The notes under the pieces are model-generated. The model did not search any database. It worked only from the letters and a program-made list of their open reading frames with translations, and had not been told where the DNA came from. Below are positions 1 through 37,530 of a stretch of 51,783 nucleotides of DNA, piece by piece. How positions within the stretch are numbered: the first letter of the stretch is position 1; each line of letters begins with the position of its first letter. The DNA is from Nocardioides sp. Its GTDB lineage: Bacteria > Actinomycetota > Actinomycetes > Propionibacteriales > Nocardioidaceae. The stretch lies in assembly GCA_025965275.1 (NCBI GenBank), contig JAOPXG010000405.1, forward strand, positions 1 through 51,783, written 5' to 3'. A program made the position numbers and the translations under genes.

Positions 1-491
1 CGCCGCGGGAGCGACCAACGCGTGATCGGGTGGCCCGGCGCGCAGGTCCTTGTAGTTCGGCTCAGCCCCCTGTGCGGCGACCGGCTGGGGCTTCGACCCG
101 GCTCAAGGTGGTGGCGTGCTGATGGGCGCGGTTGATCGTGGAGTCGACAGAGACGTTCCACTCGACCCGTCCGTCGGCGTCGGCCTCGACGATCAGGCGG
201 GCGTGGATCTTGTCCCAGGTGCCGTCAGTGCTGAATCGCTTGTGGCGCTTCCAGATCGTCTGACACGGTCCGAAGGAGTCAGGCAGGTCGCGCCAGGCGA
301 TCCCGGTCCGGAGCCGGTAGACGATGCCCTCGATGACCTGACGGTGATCACGAAACGGCCGTCCCCGCTGACCCGCCGAAGAAGGCATCAACGGCTCAAT
401 TCGAGCCCACTGAGCGTCAGTCAGCACCGCAGAACGCGCCATGCGTCATCAATCTCCACTCGACGCCGCGTTCTTTGGGAGACACGCCCTA
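1..491 (-). mobile_element. IS5-family insertion sequence, left end only (runs off the window), probably degenerate
   Basis: Transposase ORF 62-442; terminal sequence GGGCGTGTCTCCCAAAG (489 to 473, minus strand) next to TA/CTAG at 489-492; second-ORF motifs PDHAL and GRSRG present in 1-40 but in different frames. Confidence 0.85.
62..442 (-). CDS. IS5-family transposase, N-terminal ORF
   Basis: LTDAQWARIEPLMP, GRPFRDHRQVIEGIVYRLRTGIAWRDLP, W-RF--DGTW, VSVDSTINRAHQHA are typical IS5 transposase motifs. Confidence 0.92.
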   Translation of the reverse strand: MARSAVLTDAQWARIEPLMPSSAGQRGRPFRDHRQVIEGIVYRLRTGIAWRDLPDSFGPCQTIWKRHKRFSTDGTWDKIHARLIVEADADGRVEWNVSVDSTINRAHQHATTLSRVEAPAGRRTGG

Positions 492-650: not shown

Positions 651-667
651 CGGCGTAACCCGGGCGT

Positions 668-686
668 CGTTCGTCCTGGCCGAACG
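668..686. promoter_or_regulatory. Candidate IclR operator upstream of the demethylase gene
   Basis: CGTTCG-TCCTGGC-CGAACG inverted repeat; the same motif occurs twice at 6896-6929. Confidence 0.7.
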
Positions 687-803
687 TTGTCCTTCCACTG
701 CGCGGTGCTGGGCTCCTACCGTCGCGAAGCGGTTGGTGGACCGACCCAGACAGACGGCGGCTAGACCGCGTCCCCCACGAGAAGCAGCGACGAGGAGTCC
801 AGG

Positions 804-2192
804 ATGAGCGACCGGCGAGAGCCCCAGACGCTTCAGGAACTGATCGACACCACCCCCAGCTTCGTCGATCACCTGTACGGCAACCGCAAGGGCTCGGTGG
901 TCCGTGACGCGATCCAGCGGCAGCCCCCACAGTTCATCTCCCCGGAATTCACCAACTGGCGCGACGAGCAACGGGCATGGCGCGAGACGGTGGCGCTGTA
1001 CGACCAGTCCTTCCACATGACCGAGACCTACGTGCGCGGCAAGGACGCGATGCCCTTCTTCGAGTCGCTGGGCATGAACGGCTTCAAGACCTTCGGCCCG
1101 AACCGGGCCCGTCACTTCCTGCCCTGCACTCCCGCGGGCCACGTCATCGGCGACGGCATCCTGTACTGCGAGAACCCCGACGAGATCACCCTGGTGGGCC
1201 GCGCGGCCGGCCACAACTGGATCGCGTTCCAGGCCGAGACGGGGAGCTGGGACGTCAGCGCCGAGCGCGACGAGATCTTCTCGGCCAACCCGGCCGGCCG
1301 GCGGAAGGTCTACCGCTTCCAGCTCGAAGGTCCCCATGCGTTCGACCTCTTGGAGACGCTGACCGGTGAGCCCCTGCCCGACACACGCGCGTTCCACATC
1401 ATCCAGCTGACCATCGCCGGCCACCGGGTCTCGGCGCTCCGGCACACGATGGCCGGAGGACCCGGCTACGAGCTCTACGGCCCCTGGGACGAGGGCGGCG
1501 AGGTCAAGGCTGCCATCCTCGAGGCCGGCGAGGCCTTCGGACTGCGGCAGGTGGGTTCGATGGCCTATTTCACCACCGCTGTCGAGCTCGGCTGGATCGC
1601 CCGCCCGCTGCCGGGAATCTTCACCGACGAGGCTCTTCGCCCCTTCCGCGAGTGGTTGCCCGCCACCTGCGAGGAGGCAAGCTGGTCGATCGGAGGCAGC
1701 TTCTACTCCCCGTCAATCGAGGACTACTACTTCACGCCGTACGAGCTCGGCTACGGCCACCTGATCAAGCTGAACCACGACTTCGTCGGACGAGGCGCCC
1801 TCGAGCGGATGGCCGGGGACAACCACCGCCGCAAGGTCACCCTGGAGTGGGATGCCGACGACTTCGGGCGCGTCTGCGCGTCGTACCTCACGCCTGGCGA
1901 GCCGTCCGCGAAGTACATCGACCTGCCTCGGGCCAACTACTCCACGTGGCAGTACGACGCCGTGCTGGACGACCGAGGCCGCACCGTCGGCGTCGCCAAC
2001 TACACCTGCGCGAGCTGGAACGAGCGGGCGATGCTGTCGGTCGCCGTCGTCGAGGCGGAGCACGCCGAGCCCGGCAAGCAGCTGACCCTCGTGTGGGGAG
2101 AACCCGACGGCGGGGCCAAGAGCGCCCCCTGGTTGGAGCCGCACCGTCAGATGGAGATCCGCGCCACTGTGGTCAAGAGCTACGCCGACTGA
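804..2192 (+). CDS. Tetrahydrofolate-dependent aryl demethylase, LigM/DesA-like (aminomethyltransferase/GcvT family)
   Basis: PEFTNWRDEQRAW, DQSFHM, GHVIGDGI, VGRA, RFQLEGP, VGSMAY, IGGSFYSPSIEDYY, LVWGEPDGG, EPHRQ are colinear with Sphingobium LigM as recalled; GGAG RBS upstream. Confidence 0.9.
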   Translation: MSDRREPQTLQELIDTTPSFVDHLYGNRKGSVVRDAIQRQPPQFISPEFTNWRDEQRAWRETVALYDQSFHMTETYVRGKDAMPFFESLGMNGFKTFGPNRARHFLPCTPAGHVIGDGILYCENPDEITLVGRAAGHNWIAFQAETGSWDVSAERDEIFSANPAGRRKVYRFQLEGPHAFDLLETLTGEPLPDTRAFHIIQLTIAGHRVSALRHTMAGGPGYELYGPWDEGGEVKAAILEAGEAFGLRQVGSMAYFTTAVELGWIARPLPGIFTDEALRPFREWLPATCEEASWSIGGSFYSPSIEDYYFTPYELGYGHLIKLNHDFVGRGALERMAGDNHRRKVTLEWDADDFGRVCASYLTPGEPSAKYIDLPRANYSTWQYDAVLDDRGRTVGVANYTCASWNERAMLSVAVVEAEHAEPGKQLTLVWGEPDGGAKSAPWLEPHRQMEIRATVVKSYAD

Positions 2193-2200
2193 GGCGCGGG

Positions 2201-3070
2201 ATGTCCCCCACCCCGCGCGAGGGCATGTCTGCCCAGGTGGCCCTCGTCCACGACTTCTCACTCGAGATCACCGGCAAGGACAGCGGCTCGCTGCTGGAGG
2301 CCGGCGCCCTCATCCCCGCCGGCACCCGGGTCAACGTGACCTACCTGGCCCAGGAGGACCTCCAGCTCCGCGTGGCCGCGGCCCGCGCGGTCCGCGAGCT
2401 CGGGTTCGTGGCGGTCCCGCACGTGTCCGCACGCCGTCTCAGGAGCCGGGCCGAGCTCGACCAGTTCGTCGGGGCTCTCCGGGCCGACGGCAACGCCGAC
2501 CACCTCTTCCTGGTGGCGGGTGACCCGCGGACCCCCGAGGGGCCGTTCCCGGACACCGTGGCGCTCATCGAGTCCGGTGTGCTGGAGCACCACGACGTCC
2601 GCGAGGTGGGCATCTCCGGATACCCCGAAGGACACCCGCACATCCCCGACCACCTGCTGTGGCGCTCGCTGGAGGACAAGGTGGCCGCCCTGCACCAGCG
2701 GGCCGTCGAGGCGAGCGTGATCACGCAGTTCGGCTTCGACGCCGACCACGTGCTCGCGTGGGCGGAGCAGGTGCGGCAGCGCGGCGTCACGGTGCCGGTG
2801 CGGGTAGGGGTGCCCGGCCCGGCCGGCGCGAAGCGACTCCTCGCCTACGCGACCCGGTTCGGCGTCGGGACCAGCGCCGGGATCGCCAAGAAGTACGGGC
2901 TCTCGCTCACCAACCTGATGACCAGCACCGGGCCGGACCGGTTCATCCACGCCCTGGGTGAGCGGTACGACCCGCGACGCCACGGTGAGCTCCGGCTGCA
3001 CTTCTACACCTTCGGCGGCGTCGAGGCGACGGCCGACTGGGTCCGTCAGTTCCGGGGGTCCGCGTCGTGA
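2201..3070 (+). CDS. metF: Methylenetetrahydrofolate reductase of the type that accompanies LigM (alternative start 2225)
   Basis: FSLEITGKD, VPHVSARR, LVAGD, ISGYPEGHP, ITQFGFD, VGVPGPA, LHFYTFGG; directly downstream of the demethylase. Confidence 0.88.
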   Translation: MSPTPREGMSAQVALVHDFSLEITGKDSGSLLEAGALIPAGTRVNVTYLAQEDLQLRVAAARAVRELGFVAVPHVSARRLRSRAELDQFVGALRADGNADHLFLVAGDPRTPEGPFPDTVALIESGVLEHHDVREVGISGYPEGHPHIPDHLLWRSLEDKVAALHQRAVEASVITQFGFDADHVLAWAEQVRQRGVTVPVRVGVPGPAGAKRLLAYATRFGVGTSAGIAKKYGLSLTNLMTSTGPDRFIHALGERYDPRRHGELRLHFYTFGGVEATADWVRQFRGSAS

Positions 3071-3116
3071 GGCACCGTGGCCGGGGGGAAGCTCACCGAG
3101 GGCGGCGGTGGTCGTC

Positions 3117-3917
3117 CTACCCGGTCGCCACCCCGTCCGCCACGTCGACGAGGGCGCGTGAGATCCGCTCCCCCGCACGCAGCAGGGGGGCCACCATGTG
3201 GTTGCCCCGGGCTCCGAGGACCCGTTGGGTGGGGCCGGCGATGGAGACGGCGCCGACGGCCCGGGCGGCGTCGCCGCTCCGCACGAGCACGGGCACCGCG
3301 ATCGACGACAGACCGATCTCGAACTCCTCCTCCGCGCTGGCCCAACCACGCTCGCGGACGATGGCGAGGGCGGCCCGGTAACGCTCGGGATCCATCACGG
3401 TGTGCGGCGTGTGCCGACGGAATCCCGCATTGAGGACCGCCTGCTCGACGACCGGGTTGAAGGCCGCAATCGCCCGGCCACAGCTGGACGAGTGGCCGGG
3501 TACCCGACGGAACGCCTCGGTGTGGAACCGCAACCCGTGGGTGGTGCCCTCGAGCCGGTCGACGTAGAGCACCTGCGAGCCGAGCGGGATCCCGAGCTGG
3601 ACCGTCTCGCTGACCCGGTCGCGGAGCTCACCGAGGACGGGAAGCGCCAGCTCCTTGAGCAGCAGGCGGTCGGCCGCCAGCTGCCCGTACTCGAAGAGCC
3701 GGATGCCGAGCCGGTAGCGGCCGTTCGGCCGACGCTCCAGCAGGCCCCCCGCGGCCAGGGTGGCCAGCATTCGGCTGGCGGTGCTCTTCGCGATGCCGAC
3801 TTGTCGCGCGATGTCGGACGCACCGCACTCGTCCGTACCGGTGAAGCACTCGAGCACGCCCATGGCGATCGTCACCGATCGCAGGCCCCGGGGGTCCTGG
3901 GTAGCGAGCTCGTCCAC
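3117..3917 (-). CDS. IclR-family transcriptional regulator
   Basis: HTH SDIARQVGIAKSTASRMLATL, YRLG, effector domain ETVQL...SSCGRA...EEFEIGLSSIAVPV; GTG start at 3917 preceded by TGTAAT (start uncertain). Confidence 0.92.
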   Translation of the reverse strand: MDELATQDPRGLRSVTIAMGVLECFTGTDECGASDIARQVGIAKSTASRMLATLAAGGLLERRPNGRYRLGIRLFEYGQLAADRLLLKELALPVLGELRDRVSETVQLGIPLGSQVLYVDRLEGTTHGLRFHTEAFRRVPGHSSSCGRAIAAFNPVVEQAVLNAGFRRHTPHTVMDPERYRAALAIVRERGWASAEEEFEIGLSSIAVPVLVRSGDAARAVGAVSIAGPTQRVLGARGNHMVAPLLRAGERISRALVDVADGVATG

Positions 3918-4006
3918 GCCGCCGATTACACCGTGGCGGGAGGGAGCCGTCCAGTGTCTGGTCACCGGTCACCGACCAGGAGGCCGGCGGCCTCGGCCGG
4001 GCGCGA

Positions 4007-5065
4007 TCATCGACTCGCCTGGAAGGCGTACTTGAGGGCGAACGACGCGGAGTTCCAGGCTGCCGGCTGCCCGGCATTCCCCTCGACGGTGACCGGCCGC
4101 GACTGCACGACGTGCACGGGCCCTCCGGGCTTCCGGTCCTGGGACAGCACCCATTCGACGTCGACGGCGTGGCCGTAGTGCCGCTCGACGCGCCGGACGG
4201 TGTCGGCGATGGCCTGCAGCTCCTCGTCGTCGAGGACTCGGGTCTCCTGCAGCTCCGCCGGCATCTCGCGCTCGGTGACCCGCCGACTGGCCGGGTCGTA
4301 GTCGGAGATCACCTTCTTCGTGGCGACCGTGTAGCGCAGGGGTCGGAGGTCCGACTTGCCGACCTCGCCCCGGTCGGGCGTGACCAGCCCCTGGACCACG
4401 GCTTCCCCCCACCCCCACGAGCCCTCGACCACGATCCGGTCGGACTTGCCGCTGACCGGGTGCACCGAGAACGCGACCCCGGACGCTCTGGCGTGGACGA
4501 GCTCGAGGACGCCCACCGCCATCGGCATGTCCTGGTGCGAAGTCCCCCGCTCCAGCCGGTAGCGCAGCGCGCGGGGCCCGAACAGGCTTGCCCAGCAGTC
4601 ACGCGCAGCGTCGATCACCTCGGCTGCGCCGCTGATTCCCAGGTAGCTCTCGAAGATGCCGGCGAAGCTCGACTGGGCGCCGTCCTCTCCGGTCGCCGAG
4701 CTCCGTACGGCGACCAGGAGCGCCTCGTCCCGGCGGCGCTCGCACAGGTCGGCGTACCGTTGGGCGACGGCGTCGCAGAGCTCACTGGTCACGGCGACCT
4801 CGCGGATCGCCCCCACCAGCTCCTCCGACGCCGCCGTGAGCTGGCGGTCCGTCGGTGTCGCGGGAAGGGAGCGGAGGATGCCGGCGATCTGCTCGTCCAG
4901 CCCCGACGCCCGGAAGTGGGTCCGGTAGGCCTCGACGCCCAGGACGAAGCCGCCGGGCACGACCGTCCCGGCGGCCCTCATCTCCACCAGCCTCCCGATT
5001 TTCGCCCCGCCGACCGCCGTCGCCGTGTCCGGGCTGAGGTCGGCGAGGTCCAGGACGAGCGTCAC
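4007..5065 (-). CDS. PEP/pyruvate-binding (ATP-grasp) subunit of a split PEP-synthase-like phosphotransferase (PpsB/CreI/HpeI-like)
   Basis: VGGAK, VAVRSSATGEDGAQSSFAG, CWASLF, ASGVAFSVHPVSG, WGWGEAVVQGLVTPD, DVEW, VQSRPVT; GTG start overlaps upstream TGA (GTGA); no phospho-His domain. Confidence 0.88.
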   Translation of the reverse strand: MTLVLDLADLSPDTATAVGGAKIGRLVEMRAAGTVVPGGFVLGVEAYRTHFRASGLDEQIAGILRSLPATPTDRQLTAASEELVGAIREVAVTSELCDAVAQRYADLCERRRDEALLVAVRSSATGEDGAQSSFAGIFESYLGISGAAEVIDAARDCWASLFGPRALRYRLERGTSHQDMPMAVGVLELVHARASGVAFSVHPVSGKSDRIVVEGSWGWGEAVVQGLVTPDRGEVGKSDLRPLRYTVATKKVISDYDPASRRVTEREMPAELQETRVLDDEELQAIADTVRRVERHYGHAVDVEWVLSQDRKPGGPVHVVQSRPVTVEGNAGQPAAWNSASFALKYAFQASR

Positions 5066-6819
5066 GCGGGTACCTCGTCCGGCCGGTCGGCCCTTTTGAA
5101 GACCGTGACCGTGCCGTTCGTCCCGTCGACCTCCACCTCGTCGCCGTCGCTGATCACGACGGTGGCCAGGCCCACGGCGGTGACCGTCGGCACGCCGTAC
5201 TCGCGCCCGACGATCGCGGCGTGGGACAGCGTCCCTCCTCCGTCGCAGACGCAGGCGGCGATCTTGGCGAAGGCGGGCGTCCAGTTCGGAGACGTCGACT
5301 CGCATACGAGGATCTCGCCGGGCTGGACCCGGTGGAGCTCATCGGCGTTCGAGAGCACCCGCGCGATGCCGCGGGCGGTGCCCCGGGCGGCGGCGACCCC
5401 CGACAGGGTCTTGACGTCACTGTCGTCCCCCGCCGCCTGGACCGCCTTGAGGAAGTGCGAGTTCAGTCCGAAGATCTCGATGAGGATCGGGTCGGTCACC
5501 GCCTCCGGGATGGTGCCGAGCACCTTCGGCATGCTCGCCCGGCGCTCGTACCAGTGGTCGAAGTACTGCTTGCGGTCGTGGACGAGGCCCTTGAACTCGG
5601 AGAACTTCCTCTCCCCGTCGACCACCTGGAGGAGCTCGGGCCAGAACAGAAAGATGGTGTCGTCGGACGCGTCGGCGCCGACCACCTCGGCGATCTGCTG
5701 GGTGGCCCAGCGCATCGGGAGGGACACCCGCAGGTCGATGTAGTAGTTGTGGTCGTCCTGCCACCAGGGGAAGTTGGCCGCCTGGCACGACGCCAGGCCG
5801 GCGTCGAAGACCTGCTGCTCCTCCCGGGAGAGGGACGATCGCGCCGCATCGATCGCGGTCTCGCGCTCCTCGACGGCGTTCGCGAGTGCCGCCTCGAAGT
5901 CGTGGTCGGACTCCTTGAGAAGGAAGGTCTTCACCATTCCCAGTGCCGGGGTCGGGTCCTCGATCCAGGAGGGCAGGGCGATGTCGCAGGAGCCCTCGGT
6001 GCGGTAGCCGTAGACCCGCAGGAAGTCGTCGAACTCGGTCAGCCAGGTGGAGGCCGCACCTCCGTGCGCCGACAGCGCGGCACGCATCCCGGTGGCGTCG
6101 TGGGCGGCGAAGACCTCGCCGAGACCGGTGCCCCGCGCCTTCCGGGTGAGGTCCCACAGGGCCCGGTCGGTCTCCATGATCTTCGTGTCGTAGCCCTGCA
6201 GGAACTTGGCGATCTCTCCCGGGTCGATGCCCATCTCGGTGCAGGCGCCGTAGAAGCCGACGTAGTTGGCGAGGAGCGGATACATGATCTCGAAGTGGAT
6301 CTCGAACGCGCGCTTGTGGAACTGCCGCGCCTTGCGCAGATAGCCGCCGAGCTCCGCGAGCTCCAGCGACCGCAGGTCGACCGAGTGCAGGTGCGTCCAC
6401 CAGGACTCGACCTCCTCCCGGCGCTCGGCCCAGGTGCCCTCGAAGTTCTCCAGGAAGCGCGGCAGGTTCTGCATCATGCGGCGCGCCCGTTCGCCGATCT
6501 CCCACTCGTCCGTCACGTCGATCGCGGCGGCGTAGGTGTGGGTCCCGGCGATCCGCTGGGTGATGCCCCGGCCGGGCGGCAGCGGCAGCGACTCCGCCGC
6601 GAGCTGGGTCCCCCACGAGTAGCCGTCCTCGTTCCAGATCAGGCCCATCGGCGTGAGACCGCGCGGCCAGTGGAAGTCGATGAACCAGAAGCGCTCTTCG
6701 TCGGCCTTGTCGAAGGTGCGGAACGGCTCCACCACCCAGCCCGCATGGTCCAGAGCCGGCTTGAAACCGGGGTACCACTCATCCGTCACGAACTCGTCGA
6801 CGGGAACGACTGTGGCCAT
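5062..6819 (-). CDS. Phospho-His (swivel) plus substrate-binding subunit of a split phenol-type phosphotransferase (PpsA/CreH/HpeH-like)
   Basis: C-terminal GEILVCESTSPNW...GGTLSHAAIVGREYGVP...VDGTNGTV; helical N-terminal domain with FWFIDFHWP, YGYR, PSWIEDP; AGGAG RBS. Confidence 0.85.
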   Translation of the reverse strand: MATVVPVDEFVTDEWYPGFKPALDHAGWVVEPFRTFDKADEERFWFIDFHWPRGLTPMGLIWNEDGYSWGTQLAAESLPLPPGRGITQRIAGTHTYAAAIDVTDEWEIGERARRMMQNLPRFLENFEGTWAERREEVESWWTHLHSVDLRSLELAELGGYLRKARQFHKRAFEIHFEIMYPLLANYVGFYGACTEMGIDPGEIAKFLQGYDTKIMETDRALWDLTRKARGTGLGEVFAAHDATGMRAALSAHGGAASTWLTEFDDFLRVYGYRTEGSCDIALPSWIEDPTPALGMVKTFLLKESDHDFEAALANAVEERETAIDAARSSLSREEQQVFDAGLASCQAANFPWWQDDHNYYIDLRVSLPMRWATQQIAEVVGADASDDTIFLFWPELLQVVDGERKFSEFKGLVHDRKQYFDHWYERRASMPKVLGTIPEAVTDPILIEIFGLNSHFLKAVQAAGDDSDVKTLSGVAAARGTARGIARVLSNADELHRVQPGEILVCESTSPNWTPAFAKIAACVCDGGGTLSHAAIVGREYGVPTVTAVGLATVVISDGDEVEVDGTNGTVTVFKRADRPDEVPA

Positions 6820-6895
6820 GGGCGACTCTCCTAGGTCTCACCGGGTGACGTGAGTGACGAACGTCGCATCGCGCCCACCTTGGCTCAAGCGGCTC

Positions 6896-6929
6896 GTTCG
6901 CGACAGGAGAACGTTCGCGAGAGCCGAAC
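6896..6929. promoter_or_regulatory. Two abutting candidate IclR operators upstream of the phosphotransferase operon
   Basis: GTTCGCGACAGGAGAAC (6896-6912) and GTTCGCGAGAGCCGAAC (6913-6929). Confidence 0.68.
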
Positions 6930-7244
6930 ACGCCCCTCTCTCCGCGCCCGGCCGGTTCCTGCCCTCGCAGTGGGCCCAACCGTCGCGGGGTTCGTCGGTC
7001 GCATCTGCGCGCGGTCGGCGGTCGCTCGACGCCCCCTTGATCGGGCGGTCCTACGGCAAGTACCTCTCCCCCGGCGTCGTGATGCCCCGCCCCGCGCTCG
7101 CCGGCACCCCGGCGGCGGACTCCGTCGAAGACCATGGCGCTGCGGAGGTGCTGTGGCCTGGAGTTCCCCGATGTCGGTGAAGCCGGTCGTCGAAGACAAG
7201 GTGACACTGACCGGCAACCCAGTTCTCGGAGGGATGGGCGAGAA

Positions 7245-10190
7245 GTGCGCAGATGGTGGGCGAAGCTTCGCCGTCGGGGAGGTGCCGCGGCGGCTGCGGC
7301 CGTCCTCGGTCTGACTGCTTCGGTGGGTGCGGTCGCTGTCGCGGCGGGATCAGACGAGGCTCCTACGTCTGTGACGGTGCAGGAGGTGATGGACTCGTCG
7401 TCCAGCGTGCTGTCTGCTGCCGGCACCTTGGAGGTGGACCAGGTCAGCGACCAGTACGCCAACGAGTTCGACTCGACGACCGACGGTGTAAAGGCCGAGA
7501 GCGGGCGCGACTGGATGTGGGCGATCGCCTTGGTCGGGTCCTTCTACGGGGGTCTAGCGCTGCTGACCTTCGGTGTTGCCGGCGCCTTCCGCACCGAGTG
7601 GATGCGGCGGGCTGCGCTGGGGGCGATCGGCAGTGCCCTGGCCGCGTTCGTGGTATGGCTCGTCGCCCGAGCGCTGTTGGCCCAGATCGCTGACCTGGAC
7701 GCGTCGCGCCGCTTCGTCGCAGCGGTGGCCGGTTCCCTGTGGTGGGGGCAGCTGCTCATGACGATCCTGACCCTCGCCGTCATCGTCGCCGGCATGGCGT
7801 CGCTGGCGCTGCGGCCGAGTGTCAGGGCCGTGCTTCAGACCGTCGACGTGCCCCGGGCCGAAGGCGCGCCGAGCCCCCCGCTCAAGCTGGCCGGCGGCCG
7901 GACCTACGGGCTCGGGCTGGCGTTCTCCGGAGGCGGGGTTCGGGCGGCGTCGATGAGTCTGGGGGCGCTGCAGGTGCTCGAAACCGCGGACATGGGGTGG
8001 GACACCGCTTCCCGCGTCGCCGCGGTCTCGGGCGGCTCCTACATGGCGGGCGGGTGGAGCCTGGCGCGCGCGTACAAGCCCACCGCGCCGCAGGCGCCCG
8101 GACTGCCGCGGCCCTGGGCGAAGAAGGGAGACCAGCCCAGCCCCGAGGAACAGCATCTGATGGCCAACCTCGGCTACCTGCTCGCCACCACCCCGCGCGG
8201 CGTCGAGGAGGGCCACGAGGTCGACGCGGTGTCCGCCGCCCGAGCACGTCGCGCCGCCCGATTCCCCACCGCATTCGCGACCGTCTTGACCGGCATGCTG
8301 ATCAACGGCGTAGTGCTGTTCGCCATGCTGTGGGTGATCACCCAGCCCTGGGGATGGCTCTACCGCGCCTACTACGGCGGGCTGTGCAACTGGCCGAGCG
8401 GCGAACTCGACTACTCGACGGGGCACACCTGCCTACGGTCGTCGGCGACCTGGTGGCCCGGACTGGCCTGGGTGGCGATCGGCGTCGCCTTCGTCGTTGC
8501 CTGGGTGTTCGCCGCGAAGGACGCCGAACTGCGCGGCCGGGACGGCCCCCGCGCGTACGTCGGCGGGCTGAAGTACGCCGGGTACGGCAGCATCGCGCTC
8601 GGCGCGACGCTCCTGGTCCTCCTCGGCGCCCTGCCCGTGCTGATCACGCTGCTGTGGCAGCCGAACCTGCTGCAAGCGAACCTCGTCGCAGCTCTCGGCG
8701 CGCTCGGGTCGGCGACCGCGGTCGTGCGGATCCTGCGGCGGCCCCTGGCCCGGTTCGCGCCCATCGTCGGCGGCACCGTCTTCGCCGCGCTAGTGGTCTA
8801 CGTCGGATGCCGCTGCCTGCTCCACGGCATGAAGCACGGCACGAGCTGGCCGGCGCTGCTCGTGCCCGCCGCGTTTCTCGTGCTCGTCCAAGTGTTCTCC
8901 AGCCCCGAGTGGTGGTCACTGGCCGCCTACTACCGCGGGAAGCTCCGCCTGGCCTTCGCCACCTACCGACCCGGCGACGGTCGGGTCGCCGTAGCCTACG
9001 CGAACGGGAGCATCCAGAGCTCCCAATCGGATCGCCTTCCCGAACCGTCACTGGCCGACCTGGAAACCCGCGACGCTGACCCCGAGTACGGAACCCCGCT
9101 GACCGTGTGCACGACCGCCTCGGTGTCAGGCCGACGGATCCGAACCCACCACGGGATCCCGGCGATGAGCGTCACCTTCAACCCGCACGAGGTGGCTGTC
9201 CACTTCCCCAGCGGAGAGCCGGGCATCGCGCGCCGCTACGCGGTCGACACCGCGACCCTGCAGGATGTGATGCCCAAGCACAGCCCGCGGATCACGACCA
9301 TGCTCAGCGTCGGGCTGTCCGGCGCCGCGGTCTCCCCCGCCATGGGCCGGTTCCGCGTCGGCCCGGTGAGCATGCTGCTCACCTTCGCCAACATCCGGCT
9401 GGGCATGTGGATCCCCAACCCGCGATACGCCCAGGCGATCGCGGCCCGCGGAGTCAGGCTGCCGCAACCACGCCTGGGCTACCTGCTGAAGGAGTTCTTT
9501 GGCTTCCACGACCCCACCGACCTCTACCTGTACATCACCGACGGTGGCCACTGGGAGAACACCGGCCTGGTCGAGCTGCTTCGCACCGCCGACTGCCGGG
9601 AGCTGGTGTGCATCGACGCCGACGCCGGGCCGGGCAACTTGGCCTCGTCGATCTCCAAGGCGATCGACCTCGCGTGGCTCGAATGCGGCTGCCACATCTC
9701 GATGGACCTCGACTCGCTGCGATCCGACGTCGTCGTCTCGCCCGGGCGCGACTACTCGCCGCGGTCGGTGAATCTAGGTCTGGTGCTGCGTGACGACCGC
9801 GGCGAGCTCGCGATCAGCGTGCTCTGGTACGCCAAACCTGCCCTGACCCGCGAGATGCCGTTGCGGCTGCTGAGCTACCGCGAGGTCGACCACACCTTCC
9901 CCCGGGTGACAACCCTGAACCAGTTCTTCCACCTCGCCCAGTACACCGCCTACCGAGACCTCGGCCGCTTCAACGCCCGCCAACTCGTCGAGGCCCGCGA
10001 AGCCCTGCGGGACGCCGTCGAAGAATCCGACGACTTCGACACCCTTGCCGCACACGCCAGCTCCCACTGGGCCGTCGGCGAACTGGTCCGACTGATTCAA
10101 GACGCCGCTCATCGCCGAGAAGACCTCGACGTGGATGGGATCTACGCACGGATCAGCAGCGTCTACCCCACCGTTGCGCCGGCCAACTGA
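7245..10190 (+). CDS. Large multi-pass membrane patatin/cPLA2-like phospholipase (ORF open from 7134; start uncertain)
   Basis: Oxyanion motif FSGGGVRAAS, nucleophile VSGGS, catalytic TDGGHWEN; SGAAVSP, NIRLGMWIPNP; many hydrophobic helices. Confidence 0.8.
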   Translation: MRRWWAKLRRRGGAAAAAAVLGLTASVGAVAVAAGSDEAPTSVTVQEVMDSSSSVLSAAGTLEVDQVSDQYANEFDSTTDGVKAESGRDWMWAIALVGSFYGGLALLTFGVAGAFRTEWMRRAALGAIGSALAAFVVWLVARALLAQIADLDASRRFVAAVAGSLWWGQLLMTILTLAVIVAGMASLALRPSVRAVLQTVDVPRAEGAPSPPLKLAGGRTYGLGLAFSGGGVRAASMSLGALQVLETADMGWDTASRVAAVSGGSYMAGGWSLARAYKPTAPQAPGLPRPWAKKGDQPSPEEQHLMANLGYLLATTPRGVEEGHEVDAVSAARARRAARFPTAFATVLTGMLINGVVLFAMLWVITQPWGWLYRAYYGGLCNWPSGELDYSTGHTCLRSSATWWPGLAWVAIGVAFVVAWVFAAKDAELRGRDGPRAYVGGLKYAGYGSIALGATLLVLLGALPVLITLLWQPNLLQANLVAALGALGSATAVVRILRRPLARFAPIVGGTVFAALVVYVGCRCLLHGMKHGTSWPALLVPAAFLVLVQVFSSPEWWSLAAYYRGKLRLAFATYRPGDGRVAVAYANGSIQSSQSDRLPEPSLADLETRDADPEYGTPLTVCTTASVSGRRIRTHHGIPAMSVTFNPHEVAVHFPSGEPGIARRYAVDTATLQDVMPKHSPRITTMLSVGLSGAAVSPAMGRFRVGPVSMLLTFANIRLGMWIPNPRYAQAIAARGVRLPQPRLGYLLKEFFGFHDPTDLYLYITDGGHWENTGLVELLRTADCRELVCIDADAGPGNLASSISKAIDLAWLECGCHISMDLDSLRSDVVVSPGRDYSPRSVNLGLVLRDDRGELAISVLWYAKPALTREMPLRLLSYREVDHTFPRVTTLNQFFHLAQYTAYRDLGRFNARQLVEAREALRDAVEESDDFDTLAAHASSHWAVGELVRLIQDAAHRREDLDVDGIYARISSVYPTVAPAN

Positions 10191-23353: not shown

Positions 23354-23950
23354 ATGCTCGTCCGAGAGATCATGACCGCGGGCCCGGCGACCACGACCCC
23401 GCAGACCAGCACCAAGGCCGCGTTGCGTCAGCTCGCCGAGCGCGGCATCACGGCACTGCCCGTCGTCGACCGCCACGGACGGCTGTGCGGCATCGTCAGC
23501 GAGGCGGACCTCATCCAGGACGTCGTCGTCCGCGACCCGCGCGCACAGGAGCGGCCGATCACGATCGACCCCCTGTACCCGCCGAAGACGGTCGAGGACG
23601 TCTACACCCGTGCGCCCGTGACGGTCGCCGCCCAGGATGACGTCTCGGTCGCCGTCGAGCTCATGACGGCCACCGGCGCCAAGAGCCTCCCGGTCGTCGA
23701 CGACGACCGGACCGTCGTCGGCATCCTCAGCCGCAGCGACGTCATCAGGACCCTGGCCCGCGACGACGCGGAGATCGCCGCCGACATCGACCGGGTGCTG
23801 GCCTCGGTCGGCCACGAGGACTGGCTGGTCGAGGTCGTCGACGGTGTCGTGTCCGTCACCGGCCCCGCCGCTGTCGGCGAGTCCTCGATCGCCCGCGTGG
23901 TCGCCCAGACCGTGCCGGGCGTCGTCGACGTGCGGGTCTCGGCCACCTGA
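23354..23950 (+). CDS. CBS-pair protein with C-terminal BON-like domain
   Basis: MLVREIMT, ITALPVVD--GRLCGIVSEADL, SLPVVDD--VVGILSRSDV, VEVVDGVVSVTG...VPGVVDV. Confidence 0.9.
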   Translation: MLVREIMTAGPATTTPQTSTKAALRQLAERGITALPVVDRHGRLCGIVSEADLIQDVVVRDPRAQERPITIDPLYPPKTVEDVYTRAPVTVAAQDDVSVAVELMTATGAKSLPVVDDDRTVVGILSRSDVIRTLARDDAEIAADIDRVLASVGHEDWLVEVVDGVVSVTGPAAVGESSIARVVAQTVPGVVDVRVSAT

Positions 23951-23979
23951 CGGCCAGGGATCCGTCGTTCAGAAACCCG

Positions 23980-24338
23980 GACGGTCTCGAGCTCGGGGCC
24001 GGTCGGCGGCGGCTCGTGGTGCAACGGCCGGACCGGGCCGGTCTCCTCGAACCACACCTGGGCGTCGTAGCGAGCGCCCATGACCGTGGGGACGTGGTTG
24101 CCCGCCTCGCGTCCGGGGGCGCGGGCGCTCGGGTCCCAGCGGACGAGGCGACCGTCACGACGGACGGTCGCCTGCGGCGCGGACAGCTCGTCGAGCGCGG
24201 GCAGCGCGGTGGCGGCCGGCACCTCCTGGACCATCCCGATCGCGGTGTTGAGGACCACGACGTTGGGGCCGAACGAGCGCAGCCGGAGTCCGCGTCGGTG
24301 CTGCGCAGCCCCGCCGGATCGGCGGGGCCGGCAGTCAT
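23980..24338 (-). pseudogene. Chimeric relic: P-type ATPase N-terminus joined to an erythromycin-esterase-family C-terminus
   Basis: ATG at 24338 overlapping the USP stop; GLRSTDA, frameshift, RLRSFGPNV, VVLNTAIGMVQE, APQATVRRDG; then GNHVPTVMGARYDAQVWFEETGPVRPLH. Confidence 0.68.
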
Positions 24339-25258
24339 CTGCTCAGCGATCCGGCCTGCTCGAGCACGAGACCCGGGACGGCGTCCACGACCACCCTCGG
24401 CGGGACCACCCGGACCGGGCACTCGGCCGTGCGCAGCAGCGCGCGCGCCGTGCCGCCGAGGTGGACGGCCGCGGGGATGCCGCGGGAGCGACGCACGATG
24501 ACGAGCACGTCGGCGTCCGCGGACGCCTCGACCAGGGCGGTCACCGGGCGACCGTGGACGATCCTCGTCTCGACCTCGACATCGGGATAGGTCCGACGCC
24601 ACTCCTCGGTCAGGAGGTCCATCTCGTCGGTGGCCCGTCGGGTCCAGTCTTCGAGGTCGACGCGCGCCACGATGATGTCGTCGTAGCCGCTGGGCAGCCT
24701 CCACGAGTGCAGGACGACGAGCCGGGCGCCGCGCGCCGCGGCCACCGCGAACGCGTCACCCAGCAGCTCGGTCGCGTGGGTCGGCGACTTCACGCCGACG
24801 AGGACGACGCCGCGGGCGGGCTCCGGCTGCCAGCCGGCGGGCACGGAGAGCACGGGGCAGGTCGCCGTAGCGGCCACCCCCGTCGCGGTGTTGCCGAGGA
24901 CCAACCGCTCCAGCAGCGGGCGGTCGTCGCGGCCGACGACGAGGAGGGACGCCCCCTCGGCCGCCTCGGCGAGGCGCTTGGCCCGGGGGCCGCGCAGCAG
25001 CTGGCTGTCGGCCTCGAGGTCGGGGTGGATCTCACGGAGCTCCTTCAGGGCGCCGCGCAGAACCTGACCTCCGATCTCCGCGAAGTCGCGGGGCGTGACC
25101 GGCATCATCGGCGAGATCGCGACGTAGTCGGGGACGACGTGGGCCAAGGAGACCCCGACACCCAGACGTCGCGACTCGCTGACACCGAGACGCAGGGCGC
25201 TCTCGTCCGTGGGTGAACCGTTGACCCCGATGACGACGGGGCCGGTGCTGGCGGTCAT
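24335..25258 (-). CDS. Tandem-domain universal stress protein
   Basis: VVIGVNGS, LLVVGR, LVLGNTA, CPVLSVP, HLGGTARALL, CPVRVVP. Confidence 0.92.
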   Translation of the reverse strand: MTASTGPVVIGVNGSPTDESALRLGVSESRRLGVGVSLAHVVPDYVAISPMMPVTPRDFAEIGGQVLRGALKELREIHPDLEADSQLLRGPRAKRLAEAAEGASLLVVGRDDRPLLERLVLGNTATGVAATATCPVLSVPAGWQPEPARGVVLVGVKSPTHATELLGDAFAVAAARGARLVVLHSWRLPSGYDDIIVARVDLEDWTRRATDEMDLLTEEWRRTYPDVEVETRIVHGRPVTALVEASADADVLVIVRRSRGIPAAVHLGGTARALLRTAECPVRVVPPRVVVDAVPGLVLEQAGSLSR

Positions 25259-25259
25259 G

Positions 25260-26168
25260 TCATGCCTCCTCGATCGTGGTGGTGGACGGCGGTATGGGAT
25301 CGACCACCATGACCGGGCAGGTGCCGAGGCGCAGGACTGCGCGTACGACGGAGCCGAGGTGGGGGCCGAGCGGGATCGTGTGCCGGTGGCGGCCGGCGAC
25401 GAGCAGGGCGACCTGCTGCGACTCGTCCACGAGGGCCTGGCCGGCGCGGGCGTGCCGGGCGACGACCTCGGTCTCGACGTCGGGGTACTCGGCGAGCAGC
25501 GGAGCCAGGTCGGCGGTCATCGCCTGCACCTGCTCGGCGTCGTGCCGGGCGGTCCCCTCCGCGTCGAAGACGACGTCGTCGTAGGCGTTGCTGTAGTGCC
25601 AGGCGTGCAGCAGGCGGAGCTTCGCGCCGCGCAGGCGCGCCTCCTCCAGCGCCGCCCGGACGATCTCGTGCGACCCGCCGGGGTCGTGGATCGCGGCGGT
25701 CACCGTCTGCCGCTCGGAGCTCTCGCTCCAGCCCGCGGGGACCGCGACGACCGGCACCGGGGACAGCGCCGCCACCGGGTTGGTGGTCGACAGCGTGGGG
25801 ACCAGGCCCCGATGTCCCATCCGCTGGTGCTGCAGGACGACGAGCCCCGCGTGCTCGGCGATGTCGACGAGGACCCGGGTCACGGGACCGTGGGCGAGCT
25901 CGGTGGTGACCGGCAGCTCCTCGCCCAGGTCGTGCTCCAGCGCCAGGGCCGCGTGGTCCAGCGCCTCGCGGCCGAACTTGCGCACGGCGCGCTCCTCCAC
26001 GGTGAGCGCGACGCCGTCGGGCGAGATGACGACGGGGTGGAGCACGTGTACGAGGTGGACGCCGGCACCCCTCCGCCGCGCCTCGGCGGCAGCGAACCCG
26101 AGCGCGGCCTGGACGTCCTCGTCGCCGGTGACGCCGACCAGGATCTTGCGGGGCGTGGTGTCGAGCAT
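25260..26168 (-). CDS. Tandem-domain universal stress protein
   Basis: ILVGV, LVHV, VPVVAVP, LLVAGR, HLGSVVRAVL, CPVMVV; GAGGAGG RBS. Confidence 0.92.
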   Translation of the reverse strand: MLDTTPRKILVGVTGDEDVQAALGFAAAEARRRGAGVHLVHVLHPVVISPDGVALTVEERAVRKFGREALDHAALALEHDLGEELPVTTELAHGPVTRVLVDIAEHAGLVVLQHQRMGHRGLVPTLSTTNPVAALSPVPVVAVPAGWSESSERQTVTAAIHDPGGSHEIVRAALEEARLRGAKLRLLHAWHYSNAYDDVVFDAEGTARHDAEQVQAMTADLAPLLAEYPDVETEVVARHARAGQALVDESQQVALLVAGRHRHTIPLGPHLGSVVRAVLRLGTCPVMVVDPIPPSTTTIEEA

Positions 26169-26228
26169 CGTGACCTCCTCGGCCAGGACTCCTGTCTCCA
26201 GACTCGCCCGGCCTCCGCTCAACCGACA

Positions 26229-26242
26229 GGGACCTTGGTCAC
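26229..26242. promoter_or_regulatory. DosR-like box between divergent usp and flavodoxin genes
   Basis: GGGACCTTGGTCAC. Confidence 0.65.
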
Positions 26243-26321
26243 CACGACCTCGGACCGGCGACCCGTGTGTCCGTCCCCGCGGCTCGGGAGGGTGGAGGGA
26301 GGACGATCGAGGAGGCTCGAC

Positions 26322-26900
26322 ATGAATGGCAACGTGAGCACCGAGAAGGAACTGCAGGCACTCGTGGTCTACGAGTCGATGTTCGGCTGCACCGAGCTGG
26401 TGGCCCGCTCCGTGGCGGAAGGGCTCCGCACCGAGGGCGTCGCGGTGACGCTCACCGATGTGCGCGACGCCGCGCCCGCGGACGAGTCGGAGTTCGACCT
26501 GCTCGTCGTCGGCGCACCGACCCATGCGTTCTCGCTGAGTCGCCCGTCCACCCGGGCCGACGCGGTGCGGCAGGGCGCACAGCCCGGAGCCGCCACCACC
26601 GGGCTGCGCGAGTGGCTCGACGCGATGGGCGTGGCGTCCGGCGCTCCGGACCGCCTGGCCGCGGTCTTCGACACCCGGGTCACGAAGGTGCGGCGGCTGC
26701 CCAAGGCGGCGGCAACCCGCGCGGCGCACGTGCTCACCCGCCACGGCTACGACCTGGTCTCGCGCCCGACCCCGTTCCTGGTGGAGGATCTCAAGGGACC
26801 GCTCATGAACGGCGAGCTCCACCACGCCGTCACGTGGGGCCGGGTCGTCGCGCTCGCCGCGCGGCAGCGCCTCCACCCCACTCCTGCTCCGGTCCGCTGA
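26322..26900 (+). CDS. Flavodoxin-domain protein
   Basis: ALVVYESMFGCT, DLLVVGAPTHAFS, GLREWL, AVFDTR. Confidence 0.88.
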   Translation: MNGNVSTEKELQALVVYESMFGCTELVARSVAEGLRTEGVAVTLTDVRDAAPADESEFDLLVVGAPTHAFSLSRPSTRADAVRQGAQPGAATTGLREWLDAMGVASGAPDRLAAVFDTRVTKVRRLPKAAATRAAHVLTRHGYDLVSRPTPFLVEDLKGPLMNGELHHAVTWGRVVALAARQRLHPTPAPVR

Positions 26901-26938
26901 GGGGGTGCGGCATGGACGAGCTGCTCTTCATCTGACCG

Positions 26939-29942
<3,004 letters not shown>

Positions 29943-29999
29943 GACCCCAATCTAGGGCGCCGATGTCGGTCCGTCGGGCTCCGATGGACCCGCCTTCGG

Positions 30000-30072
30000 G
30001 GGACCTTGGTCCCTCGTCCGTGACCGTCCACCGGCCGGGACCCGATGGGGACCATCACGGGACCTCTGGCCC
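30000..30072. promoter_or_regulatory. Two DosR-like boxes between dosR-like and acg-like genes
   Basis: GGGACCTTGGTCCC (30000-30013) and GGGACCTCTGGCCC (30059-30072). Confidence 0.78.
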
Positions 30073-30127
30073 TACGGCGCCACCGCTCCGGCGCCGCAGC
30101 GTTGACGCATCCCGAGGAGGTGGCGCC

Positions 30128-31093
30128 ATGAGCACGAGGCCCGGGCCGGCGACCCTGCGCCGGATCGTCGAGCTCGCCTGTCGCGCCCCGAGCATCCACA
30201 ACACCCAGCCGTGGCTCTGGCGGGTGACGGGCAGCCGGCTCGACCTGTACGCCGACCCCGCCCGCCAGCTGGTCGTCGCCGACCGCGACGGCCGCAACCT
30301 GACGATCAGCTGCGGCGCCGCCCTGCACCACGCCCAGGTCGCCGCGAGCGCCCTCGGCCTGCAGGCCTACGTGCGCCGGATGCCGGTGGCCGGCAACCCG
30401 AGACACCTGGCCTCGCTCGAGCTGACGCCGCGCCGCCGCCCGCCGCACGCCGAGGCCGACCTCCGGGCCCTGGATCGGCGCAGCACCGACCGCCGCCGGT
30501 TCACGGCGTGGCCGATGTCCGACGAACGGCTCGTCGTCCTGGCCGGCTCCGTGTCCACCTGGGCCGTCCACGTCACGCCGATCACGGACCTCGCCACGCG
30601 CGTGCGCCTCGAGCTCCTGGTCAGCCGGGCGATGGCCCACCAGGACGCGGACCCGCAACTCACCGCGGAGCAGCAGCGCTGGATCGACCACAGCCCGGTC
30701 GACGGCATCCCGTCGGCCTCGGTCCACTCGGGCTGCTGCCGCCGCCTCCGACCGTCCCGTTTCGACCACCCGGACCCGGCCGAGCCGGAGGTGCCCGTGC
30801 AGAGCACCGACGGAGTGCTGCTGCTCAGCACCGACGCGGACGACCCGGCGGCCTGGCTGCGCACGGGCGAGGCTCTCAGCGCACTGTGGCTGCGCGCGAC
30901 CACCGAGGCGCTGTCGGTCGTCCCCCTGAGCCAGGTGGTCGAGGTCGCCGAGACGCGGTCCGTGCTGCACCATGACCTCCTCGGGGGCCGGGTGGTCCCC
31001 CAGACCCTGCTCCGGATCGGCTGGCAGGAGATCGGCCGCAGCGACCTCCCGCGCACGCCCCGCCGCCCGGTCGACGAGGTCATCCTGCGCTGA
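30128..31093 (+). CDS. Acg-family FMN-binding nitroreductase-like protein
   Basis: ACRAPSIHNTQPW, ISCGAALHH, RRSTDRRRF, WLRTGEALSALWL, PQTLLRIGW, TPRRPVDEV. Confidence 0.92.
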   Translation: MSTRPGPATLRRIVELACRAPSIHNTQPWLWRVTGSRLDLYADPARQLVVADRDGRNLTISCGAALHHAQVAASALGLQAYVRRMPVAGNPRHLASLELTPRRRPPHAEADLRALDRRSTDRRRFTAWPMSDERLVVLAGSVSTWAVHVTPITDLATRVRLELLVSRAMAHQDADPQLTAEQQRWIDHSPVDGIPSASVHSGCCRRLRPSRFDHPDPAEPEVPVQSTDGVLLLSTDADDPAAWLRTGEALSALWLRATTEALSVVPLSQVVEVAETRSVLHHDLLGGRVVPQTLLRIGWQEIGRSDLPRTPRRPVDEVILR

Positions 31094-31108
31094 CGGACAG
31101 GCCCTGGT

Positions 31109-31122
31109 GGGCACTAGGTCCC
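31109..31122. promoter_or_regulatory. DosR-like box upstream of usp-usp-ackA
   Basis: GGGCACTAGGTCCC (reverse complement GGGACCTAGTGCCC). Confidence 0.55.
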
Positions 31123-31180
31123 GCCCGCCGCAGGCCGTCCGTCGGTACCGCAACGCGAGGCCGGTGCCGACAGTGGACTC

Positions 31181-32068: not shown

Positions 32069-32080
32069 CCTGGTGACCTC

Positions 32081-33034: not shown

Positions 33035-33070
33035 GTCCCCGTTACGGTGACCGGGACCGAAGGGGGCCGC

Positions 33071-36568: not shown

Positions 36569-36581
36569 GCGGTGCCCCGCC

Positions 36582-37478
36582 TCATGCGAGCTGGGCCGGG
36601 TGCCGGTCCGGGCGGCGGACGTGGTGCGCGTGCCGGGGTGCGGCCAGCAGCACCGGGCAGGCGGCTTCGCGCAGGACCGACCGGGCGACCGGCCCCAGCT
36701 GCGAACCCCGCGGCAGCAGCGGGTCGTGCCGGCCGAGCACCAGCAGGGCGGCGGGGTACGACGCCTCGATGAGCGCCTCGCCGGGCCGGGCGTTGCGGAC
36801 GTGCACCTCGACGGGCACGTCGTCGTAGGCGACCAGCAGCGAGGCCAGCGCGCGGTCGATGCCGGCTTGGCAGGTCTCGGGCCAGGTGGGGTCGTCGACA
36901 TGGGTGAGGGCTCGCCGGCCGGCGCCGGGCGGGCGCCACCAGGTGCTCACGACGGTCAGCCTGGCCTGCCGCGCACGAGCGGCGGCGAACGCCTCGAGCA
37001 GCACCTCGGCGCTGTCCGCGGCATCGTCGACACCGACCACCACGTGGGGGGACCCCGTGGTGCCCTCCCAGCCGTCCGGGACCGAGACGACCGGCGCGTG
37101 GACCCGGGCGGCGACGCCGCCGGTCACGGAGCGCACGTAGGGGTGGGTCCGCCGGGACTCCGGGCAGCGCCCGACGACGACGAGCGGTGCGCTCTGCGCG
37201 GCGCACACGACCGCGTCGACGGCCGGCGCCTGCACGAGGGTCGAGGTCACGGGCACCAGGTCGGCGACCAGTGCCGAGACGCTGTCGACGGCCGACTCCA
37301 GGACGGCGGCTCCTTGTCGCTCCAGCTCGCGGACGTCGGCGGCGCGCAGCAGGTCGATGGCGTGCACCAGGTGCAGGCCGCGACCCTGTCGCAGTGCTTC
37401 GACCGCGGCGTACTCGAGGGCGCTGGCCGAACCTCGGCGACCGACTGCGACCACGACGGGCGGGGGCGTGGTTTCCAT
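36582..37478 (-). CDS. Tandem-domain universal stress protein
   Basis: [42 protein letters not shown]. Confidence 0.9.
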
Positions 37479-37530
37479 GACGACTCCGTTCTGTTGTCTC
37501 CACCGTCGGGCACCACGGCCACCCGACCTA

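What the first reader, a model, noticed from the sequence alone, without database searches (positions are those of the whole stretch)
668..6929. Phenol-phosphorylase pair coupled to a THF-dependent demethylase: candidate new aromatic catabolic route
Seen: a LigM/DesA-like demethylase and MetF converge on a split PEP-synthase-like pair (585 aa phospho-His subunit, about 352 aa ATP-grasp subunit, translationally coupled) and an IclR gene. Known: such split pairs phosphorylate phenolic OH groups (Thauera PpsAB, Corynebacterium CreHI, Rhodococcus HpeHI, Sphingobium AcvAB) ahead of carboxylation or P450 oxidation, while LigM/DesA with MetF demethylate vanillate/syringate without phosphorylation. 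Inference: a methoxyphenol (guaiacol, syringol or related) is phosphorylated and then demethylated, or the catechol product is masked as a phosphate. I know of no described pathway joining the two. No carboxylase, P450 or phosphatase is visible in the module.
Basis: partly seen in the sequence, partly recalled or inferred. Interest (0 to 1): 0.85.

Follow-up and report, generated by a model that had tools for sequence, protein, structure and literature searches.

The report
Phenol kinase coupled to folate demethylase
This is a conserved five-gene bacterial cassette whose two halves share one control-site motif and travel together across genomes; it likely attaches a phosphate to a methoxyphenol such as guaiacol and then removes the methyl group with folate, which would be an undescribed oxygen-free entry step for lignin-derived phenols.

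Summary
Window 664-6932 is one 6.27-kb block, 86-87% identical in two other Nocardioides genomes, bounded by three copies of a palindrome (GTTC-N9-GAAC) placed before both the LigM-like gene and the kinase operon. The kinase (K1) and this LigM-like subclade occur in the same 3 of 300 genus genomes, and in at least five gene orders across Actinomycetota. The subclade was found in 0 of 400 background genomes. K1 is a divergent RPH/CreHI-type dikinase (28% to a CreH-like protein). The demethylase keeps the equivalents of LigM His60, Arg122 and Tyr247 and adds invariant basic residues. Phosphatases and catechol 2,3-dioxygenases lie in a second kinase-Rieske cluster of the same genome, which carries the same palindrome. 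Among 51 K1 genomes, 12 have the LigM-like gene, 15 a dedicated Rieske oxygenase, none both, and 24 neither. Best reading: methoxyphenol → aryl phosphate → THF-dependent O-demethylation → catechol phosphate → catechol cleavage. Substrate and step order are inferred, not shown. My literature searches found no such pathway.

The parts
669..685 (.). Candidate operator GTTC-N9-GAAC, 135 nt before the ligM-like start; left end of the cassette
   Evidence: rank 2 in the genome with a matrix trained without own, Nocardioides or LigM-bearing loci; binding by IclR is inferred
804..2192 (+). LigM/DesA-like THF-dependent demethylase, 462 aa, distinct subclade with an N-terminal NxKGS..D..RQP segment
2201..3070 (+). 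MetF closest to type-4 (methyl-THF-oxidising) S6MTHFR; alternative start at 2225
   Evidence: (7XG9, E 5e-81)
3117..3917 (-). IclR-family regulator
4007..5065 (-). ATP-grasp subunit (K1B) of a two-component dikinase, 352 aa
5062..6819 (-). Substrate-binding and phospho-His swivel subunit (K1A), 585 aa, His533
6896..6929 (.). Two tandem candidate operators GTTC-N9-GAAC before the kinase operon; right end of the cassette

Best explanation
The cassette likely encodes an add-on entry route in which the two-subunit kinase would phosphorylate a methoxyphenol (most likely guaiacol-type), the LigM-like enzyme would move the O-methyl group of the aryl phosphate to tetrahydrofolate, and phosphatases encoded elsewhere in the genome would release a catechol for ring cleavage. 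Step 1 (inferred from fold, His533 and family chemistry): K1B binds ATP, K1A passes the beta-phosphate via His533 to the phenolic OH and traps the diffusible phenol. Step 2 (inferred): THF-dependent O-demethylation of the anionic aryl phosphate gives catechol phosphate and methyl-THF without O2 or formaldehyde. Step 3 (inferred from the type-4-like sequence): MetF oxidises methyl-THF to methylene-THF to recycle folate; a purU-like gene lies on C292. Step 4 (inferred): the HAD or histidine phosphatase of the C378 cluster removes the phosphate and catechol 2,3-dioxygenase with the meta-cleavage enzymes finishes. An IclR protein is predicted to control both arms through GTTC-N9-GAAC. Shown: genes, cassette limits, shared motif, co-occurrence. 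My odds: one pathway 0.9, phosphorylation first 0.7, O-methylated phenol 0.8.
For: Co-occurrence: K1 in 3 of 300 genus genomes and the LigM-like subclade in the same 3; in a draw of 201 genomes of another order, 5 and 5 with 4 shared, centre genome included; subclade in 11 of 50 K1 genomes against 0 of 400 phylum genomes. Linkage in 8 of 80 K1 loci plus metagenome contig L095, in five layouts including one strand (L017) and divergent genes (L095). Motif upstream of 70 of 83 K1A rows (0.14 expected), in relaxed form upstream of 24 of 24 subclade rows (17 distinct records, some on contigs without K1) and of 4 of 66 distant LigM rows. L095 holds catechol dioxygenase, both phosphatases, iclR, K1, ligM, metF and purU in one locus. 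A K1-adjacent Rieske subclade and the LigM-like gene exclude each other, 15 against 12 of 51 genomes with no overlap, with LigM-bearing kinases next to Rieske-bearing ones at three places of the tree and again in G554. Demethylase: H71, R133, Y255 kept; N27, K29, R39, R267 invariant in 120 of 120 homologues. In the Hpe pathway the downstream carboxylase accepts only the phosphorylated substrate (PMC9618137, passages).
Against: No biochemistry. 24 of 51 K1 genomes have neither the LigM-like gene nor the dedicated Rieske enzyme, so K1 has uses that need no such partner (many are incomplete MAGs). G654 has the demethylase without a K1 hit (contig ends next to the HAD gene) and four short metagenome contigs L091-L094 show it without K1. 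I could not place the basic residues in the pocket: the model has pLDDT below 50 at residues 19-53 and 252-272. The 120 homologues include non-actinobacterial proteins whose neighbours I could not check. MetF lacks three type-4 marks (P49→A, C219→F, P268→T). LigM-family enzymes also open methylenedioxy rings (PMC5547118, passages) and such kinase pairs also serve 3-hydroxypyridine (bioRxiv 2020.01.08.898148, passages). Genomes counted are related, so counts overstate independence.
Confidence: 0.55

Rival explanations
1. Same pathway, other substrate class: the phosphorylated compound is a heteroaromatic or N-, S-methyl or methylenedioxy phenol (methoxy-hydroxypyridine, methylthiophenol, sesamol) rather than a lignin-type methoxyphenol.
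For: K1A is about equally distant (26-28%) from CreH-like and from a molybdo-hydroxylase-linked pair; a PEP-utilising pair is required for 3-hydroxypyridine hydroxylation; BrdA/SesA cleave methylenedioxy rings with THF; both LigM and DesA cut-offs are missed.
Against: Linked ring-cleavage genes are catechol 2,3-dioxygenase above its cut-off and catechol ortho genes; BrdA is only 26.7% identical to LigM while this protein is 42-45% identical by structure alignment; a demethylenase would give methylene-THF and need no MetF.
Confidence: 0.17
2. Demethylation first: the LigM-like enzyme frees a phenol from an aryl methyl ether (anisole or veratrole type), or K1 masks the catechol formed; K1 then phosphorylates the product for the Rieske enzyme of the core cluster.
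For: Explains co-occurrence and shared motif equally well; the core Rieske enzyme is present in 11 of the 12 LigM-bearing genomes; K1 genomes with neither partner would use the core Rieske enzyme.
Against: The demethylase keeps Arg122 and gains invariant basic residues, which suits an anion, not a neutral ether (inference); the genome already has a CreH-like kinase beside that Rieske gene; masking a catechol would delay its cleavage.
Confidence: 0.15
3. Two co-regulated but chemically separate arms: the demethylase acts on a free methoxybenzoate, as LigM/DesA do, and K1 phosphorylates alkylphenols for a Rieske enzyme.
For: L138 shows an ordinary LigM-like gene near an Hpe/Acv-like kinase, where demethylation would follow phosphate removal; AcvAB does not phosphorylate vanillate (bioRxiv 2022.04.28.489975, passages).
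Against: No carboxylase or protocatechuate genes in the LigM-bearing K1 loci examined; strict co-occurrence of this subclade with K1 and exclusion by the K1-adjacent Rieske enzyme are unexplained.
Confidence: 0.1
4. Chance juxtaposition next to an insertion sequence.
For: An IS5-family element lies at 62-442 at the contig start.
Against: Same block in two other genomes, five gene orders, shared motif.
Confidence: 0.02

Closest known systems
CreHI-CreJEF-CreD 4-cresol pathway (Corynebacterium glutamicum)
   Same: Two-subunit phenolic dikinase, IclR regulator, phosphorylate-modify-dephosphorylate logic.
   Different: K1A is 28% identical to the CreH-like protein of a Cre-type cluster on a Rhodococcus ruber plasmid, against 55% for the genome's second kinase; the modifying enzyme is a THF demethylase, not a P450; no phosphatase in the cassette.
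HpeHI / AcvAB acetovanillone pathways and Thauera PpsAB
   Same: RPH-like fold and catalytic His; HpeHI and AcvAB phosphorylate methoxylated phenols.
   Different: These go on to carboxylation and demethylate only the later free vanillate; their large subunits share 40-46% identity, which K1A does not reach with the CreH-like reference.
LigM/DesA with type-4 MetF and LigH/PurU (Sphingobium SYK-6)
   Same: Fold (TM 0.8), His60/Arg122/Tyr247 equivalents, ligM-metF gene order, MetF closest to S6MTHFR.
   Different: Below both NCBIfam cut-offs; N-terminal YxYP segment replaced by a longer basic segment; linked to a kinase and to catechol rather than protocatechuate cleavage.
3-hydroxypyridine pathway of Ensifer adhaerens HP1 (orf9/orf10 with HpdA)
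   Same: A PEP-utilising/PPDK-like pair genetically required for a non-carboxylase modifying enzyme.
   Different: Partner is a molybdenum hydroxylase; no demethylation.
GcoAB/AgcAB/SyoA P450 guaiacol and syringol O-demethylases (GcoAB named, SyoA in search listings; AgcAB details recalled)
   Same: Same proposed net reaction, methoxyphenol to catechol.
   Different: O2- and NADH-dependent, release formaldehyde, act on the free phenol.

Membership tests
Two-component phenolic dikinases (CreHI/HpeHI/PpsAB/AcvAB) | Separate ATP-grasp subunit and substrate/swivel subunit | tested here: met
Two-component phenolic dikinases (CreHI/HpeHI/PpsAB/AcvAB) | RPH-like fold over most of the large subunit, no PEP-binding domain | tested here: met
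   model pLDDT 87.9; best hits RPH, TM 0.57-0.63
Two-component phenolic dikinases (CreHI/HpeHI/PpsAB/AcvAB) | Catalytic His of the swivel domain | tested here: met
   His533, invariant in 53 of 53 aligned rows
Two-component phenolic dikinases (CreHI/HpeHI/PpsAB/AcvAB) | T/SxxGGxxxH motif with Met two before His (PMC12167813) | tested here: not met
   Cys525 in place of T/S and Leu531 in place of Met
Two-component phenolic dikinases (CreHI/HpeHI/PpsAB/AcvAB) | About 40-46% identity among characterised large subunits; PRK08296 models | tested here: not met
   28% to a CreH-like plasmid protein used as stand-in; best PRK08296 score 234 against cut-off 578
Two-component phenolic dikinases (CreHI/HpeHI/PpsAB/AcvAB) | AMP-forming phosphorylation of a phenolic OH | not testable with these tools
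   needs an enzyme assay
LigM/DesA O-demethylases | NCBIfam equivalog cut-offs | tested here: not met
   LigM 477.8 against 580, DesA 522.7 against 800
LigM/DesA O-demethylases | LigM fold and His60, Arg122, Tyr247 equivalents (their roles are recalled, papers not held) | tested here: met
   H71, R133, Y255 by alignment to 5X1I assuming a 3-residue tag offset
LigM/DesA O-demethylases | Tyr29/Tyr31, Pro248, Asn250 of the vanillate pocket (roles recalled) | tested here: not met
   F256 and T258; YxYP segment of the LigM-like row L138 aligns to V32/R34 plus an 8-residue insertion
LigM/DesA O-demethylases | THF-dependent demethylation of vanillate or syringate | not testable with these tools
   needs an enzyme assay
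Type-4 MTHFR (S6MTHFR) | Three motifs (Leu48-Pro49; Phe215/Cys219; Pro268-Phe269) and linkage to a THF demethylase | tested here: inconclusive
   best structure hit 7XG9 at E 5e-81, next 3e-7; L48 and F269 kept, P49, C219, P268 changed
Cre-type pathway cluster | P450 system, dehydrogenases and phosphatase beside the kinase | tested here: not met
   absent from the cassette

The most novel reading that the evidence does not exclude
Actinobacteria run a phosphate-tagged phenol funnel: a second, deep-branching kinase tags guaiacol-type phenols so that the phosphate stands in for the carboxylate that LigM enzymes need, and a new aryl-phosphate O-demethylase family (THF-dependent, swapped for a Rieske demethylase in other lineages) turns them into catechol phosphate, merging with an also undescribed kinase-Rieske route from phenol. 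This would be the first THF-dependent, oxygen-free guaiacol demethylation in aerobic bacteria and the first demethylase for aryl phosphates.
Probability: 0.4. Interest if true: 0.85.

Novelty: new variant of a known kind. Interest (0 to 1): 0.72.

Why it matters
O-demethylation is a bottleneck in lignin valorisation, and known aerobic guaiacol demethylases use O2 and NADH and release formaldehyde. A kinase plus THF demethylase would trap volatile methoxyphenols at low concentration, keep the methyl group in the folate pool and give a protected catechol. It also addresses the question left open in PMC12167813 of why these pathways start with phosphorylation. The module occurs in small-genome Nanopelagicales MAGs as well as soil isolates, and two named Nocardioides strains carry it, so it can be tested directly.

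Tried and rejected
Chance neighbourhood: rejected. Ordinary PEP synthase/PPDK or rifampin phosphotransferase: no PEP-binding domain, split architecture, scores far below cut-offs; an intact PPDK lies at about 37619-40315. P450 before ligM in L012: P450cin-like, outside the shared block and absent from L011, so not part of the module. The P450 near K1 in 9 of 80 loci is only 27% identical to the CreJ-like protein and has no close solved relative. The genome's P450-reductase gene on C162 is CYP116B-like, not GcoA-like; the other P450s were not tested. The demethylase model (mean pLDDT 68) could not place the basic residues. RNA run X7 has four short contigs in metF, iclR and K1A; with no silent control this is no evidence of expression. 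Sigma-70 scan found nothing. Residues separating the two Rieske subclades were not universal and were not used. Matching longest-contig lengths between the two homologue lists (86479, 18220, 5880, 130898) hint at further linkage but were not verified. The LigM structure papers were not held and searches for their residues found nothing useful. No complex prediction was run, since a split pair would pass by likeness to RPH.
Full report
Anatomy. The five genes are present and intact: a 462-aa LigM/DesA-like gene (804-2192) and metF (2201-3070) on the plus strand meet iclR (3917-3117), a 352-aa ATP-grasp gene (5065-4007, K1B) and a 585-aa phospho-His gene (6819-5062, K1A) on the minus strand, the last two overlapping by GTGA. 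An IS5-family element occupies the contig start. By blastn, window 664-6932 is one block 86-87% identical to L011 (Nocardioides aquiterrae) and L012 (Nocardioides sp. PD653-B2), whose flanking genes differ from the window's. It is a discrete cassette.

The kinase. K1A folds like rifampin phosphotransferase without its ATP-grasp domain (pLDDT 87.9; TM 0.63) and has His533. That is the architecture of HpeHI/CreHI/PpsAB (PMC12167813, parts 1-4 of 6 read). It is not a close member: 28% identity to the CreH-like protein of a Cre-type plasmid cluster, which I used as stand-in because the characterised sequences were not retrievable, and far below the PRK08296 cut-offs. The genome's second pair on C378 (K2) is 55% identical to that stand-in and passes those cut-offs. 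K1 is a separate clade: 169 matching stretches in the species collection, the best 80 kept, nearly all Actinomycetota.

The demethylase and MetF. The protein is LigM-like in fold and keeps the equivalents of His60, Arg122 and Tyr247 (roles recalled, the structure papers were not held). It misses both equivalog cut-offs and belongs to a well-supported subclade in which the N-terminal pocket segment is replaced by a longer basic one; N27, K29, R39 and R267 are invariant in 120 of 120 homologues. A phosphate site is an inference, as the model is poor there. MetF is closest to the methyl-THF-oxidising S6MTHFR (PMC11868366, parts 1-3 of 8 read) but keeps only part of its motifs.

Do the arms belong together? 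In 300 genomes drawn from the genus, K1A occurs in 3 and the demethylase subclade in the same 3. In 201 genomes of the order of G449, each occurs in 5, with 4 shared including the centre genome; the lone demethylase genome breaks off beside the usual HAD neighbour, and the lone kinase genome has a Rieske oxygenase in the locus. I searched 50 of the 80 K1 loci's genomes: 11 have the subclade, against 0 of 400 phylum genomes. The genes are within one locus in 8 of 80 K1 loci and on metagenome contig L095; of 6 close metagenome matches only L095 shows K1, the other five contigs being 1.7-8.2 kb, and none of 73 distant LigM-like contigs shows K1. Layouts include convergent (window), one strand (L017), divergent (L095) and two with a MetE-like gene in between.

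A shared control site. GTTC-N9-GAAC occurs three times in the window (0.38 expected), once before the demethylase and twice before K1A. It lies within 300 nt upstream of 70 of 83 K1A rows; a relaxed form lies upstream of 24 of 24 subclade rows (17 distinct records) but only 4 of 66 distant LigM rows. Because I derived the motif from these regions, I retrained a matrix on 61 K1A-upstream sites from loci other than the own, Nocardioides and LigM-bearing ones: the window sites rank 2, 3 and 5 in the 4.4-Mb genome and a site before the C378 cluster ranks 8; ranks 1, 4, 6 and 7 have no evident link. That IclR binds it is inferred.

The missing steps. C378 carries two catechol 2,3-dioxygenase genes, a histidine phosphatase, K2, a phthalate-dioxygenase-type Rieske oxygenase (RieB), a HAD hydrolase, a reductase and the meta-cleavage lower path. 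The same core is present in all six other LigM-bearing genomes whose RieB region I fetched, in part cut by contig ends. A RieB-level match occurs in 11 of the 12 LigM-bearing genomes against 16 of 400 background genomes. L095 has dioxygenase, both phosphatases, iclR, K1, demethylase, metF and purU together. Earlier AI notes of this scan describe this core cluster in other genomes and none the demethylase link; they are leads, not support.

A swap partner. Rieske genes near K1 fall in two subclades; all 18 rows of subclade A sit next to K1 (quick tree). Across 51 K1 genomes, 15 have A, 12 have the demethylase, none has both and 24 have neither. Demethylase-bearing kinases occur at three places of the kinase tree, each near A-bearing ones. 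The simplest reading is that both act on the K1 product and yield a catechol phosphate; whether A demethylates or hydroxylates is open. Relatedness and incomplete MAGs weaken these counts, and the 24 genomes with neither show that K1 is not confined to this use.

Mechanism and rivals. Best: methoxyphenol → aryl phosphate → THF-dependent demethylation → catechol phosphate → catechol → meta-cleavage (0.55). Rivals: other methylated substrate class (0.17), demethylation first or product masking (0.15), co-regulated separate arms (0.10), chance (0.02).

Literature. Ten full-text searches found Cre, Hpe, Acv, Pps, MarK (PMC12624787, abstract, part 1 and one section) and Hpd (passages) but no paper joining such a kinase to a THF demethylase; two searches returned nothing. 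The library lacks most subscription journals, and I read no supplements, where the kinase phylogenies of PMC9618137 might include this clade.

Verdict. Real, conserved and probably one regulated pathway; a new variant of phosphorylation-primed aromatic catabolism with an untested substrate. Interest 0.72.

Noticed in passing
G000:C378:293-16953 (L170): Second kinase pair (CreH-like) with Rieske oxygenase, histidine and HAD phosphatases, two catechol 2,3-dioxygenases and meta-cleavage genes; candidate phosphorylation-primed phenol-to-catechol route, with the same palindrome at 15053.
   Followed up: partly
L023:6373-7539 and 19 other K1 loci: A MetE catalytic-domain-like protein with H-T-C and a later Cys kept lies near K1 in 20 of 80 loci, with or without the LigM-like gene. 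In LigM loci it appears where metF is absent. It could be a methyl sink or a third, thiol-dependent demethylase.
   Followed up: partly
L170:7342-7587 and L170:15147-15767: Two conserved proteins with no family hit: an 80-aa Cys-pair protein after the Rieske gene and a 207-aa protein before iclR.
   Followed up: no
window 62-442: IS5-family transposase ORF at the contig start, ending about 180 nt before the first operator; a partial second copy on C131.
   Followed up: partly
window 7134-10190: 1018-aa membrane protein with a weak patatin hit (E 7e-4); not in related loci.
   Followed up: no
window 23354-40315: Cluster of universal stress proteins, CBS protein, GAF histidine kinase and regulator, acetate kinase, phosphoketolase and an intact PPDK, resembling a hypoxia/dormancy island.
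   Followed up: no
window 47876-50050: Type III glutamine synthetase gene.
   Followed up: no
L138:718-9505: An ordinary LigM-like gene about 2 kb from an Hpe/Acv-like kinase pair with apparent biotin-carboxylase parts.
   Followed up: no
L012:16240-18646: P450cin-like P450 with reductase and ferredoxin just outside the cassette in PD653-B2.
   Followed up: partly
L048, L061, L078: K1A or K1B matches are in pieces in these MAG loci (possible frameshifts or assembly errors).
   Followed up: no
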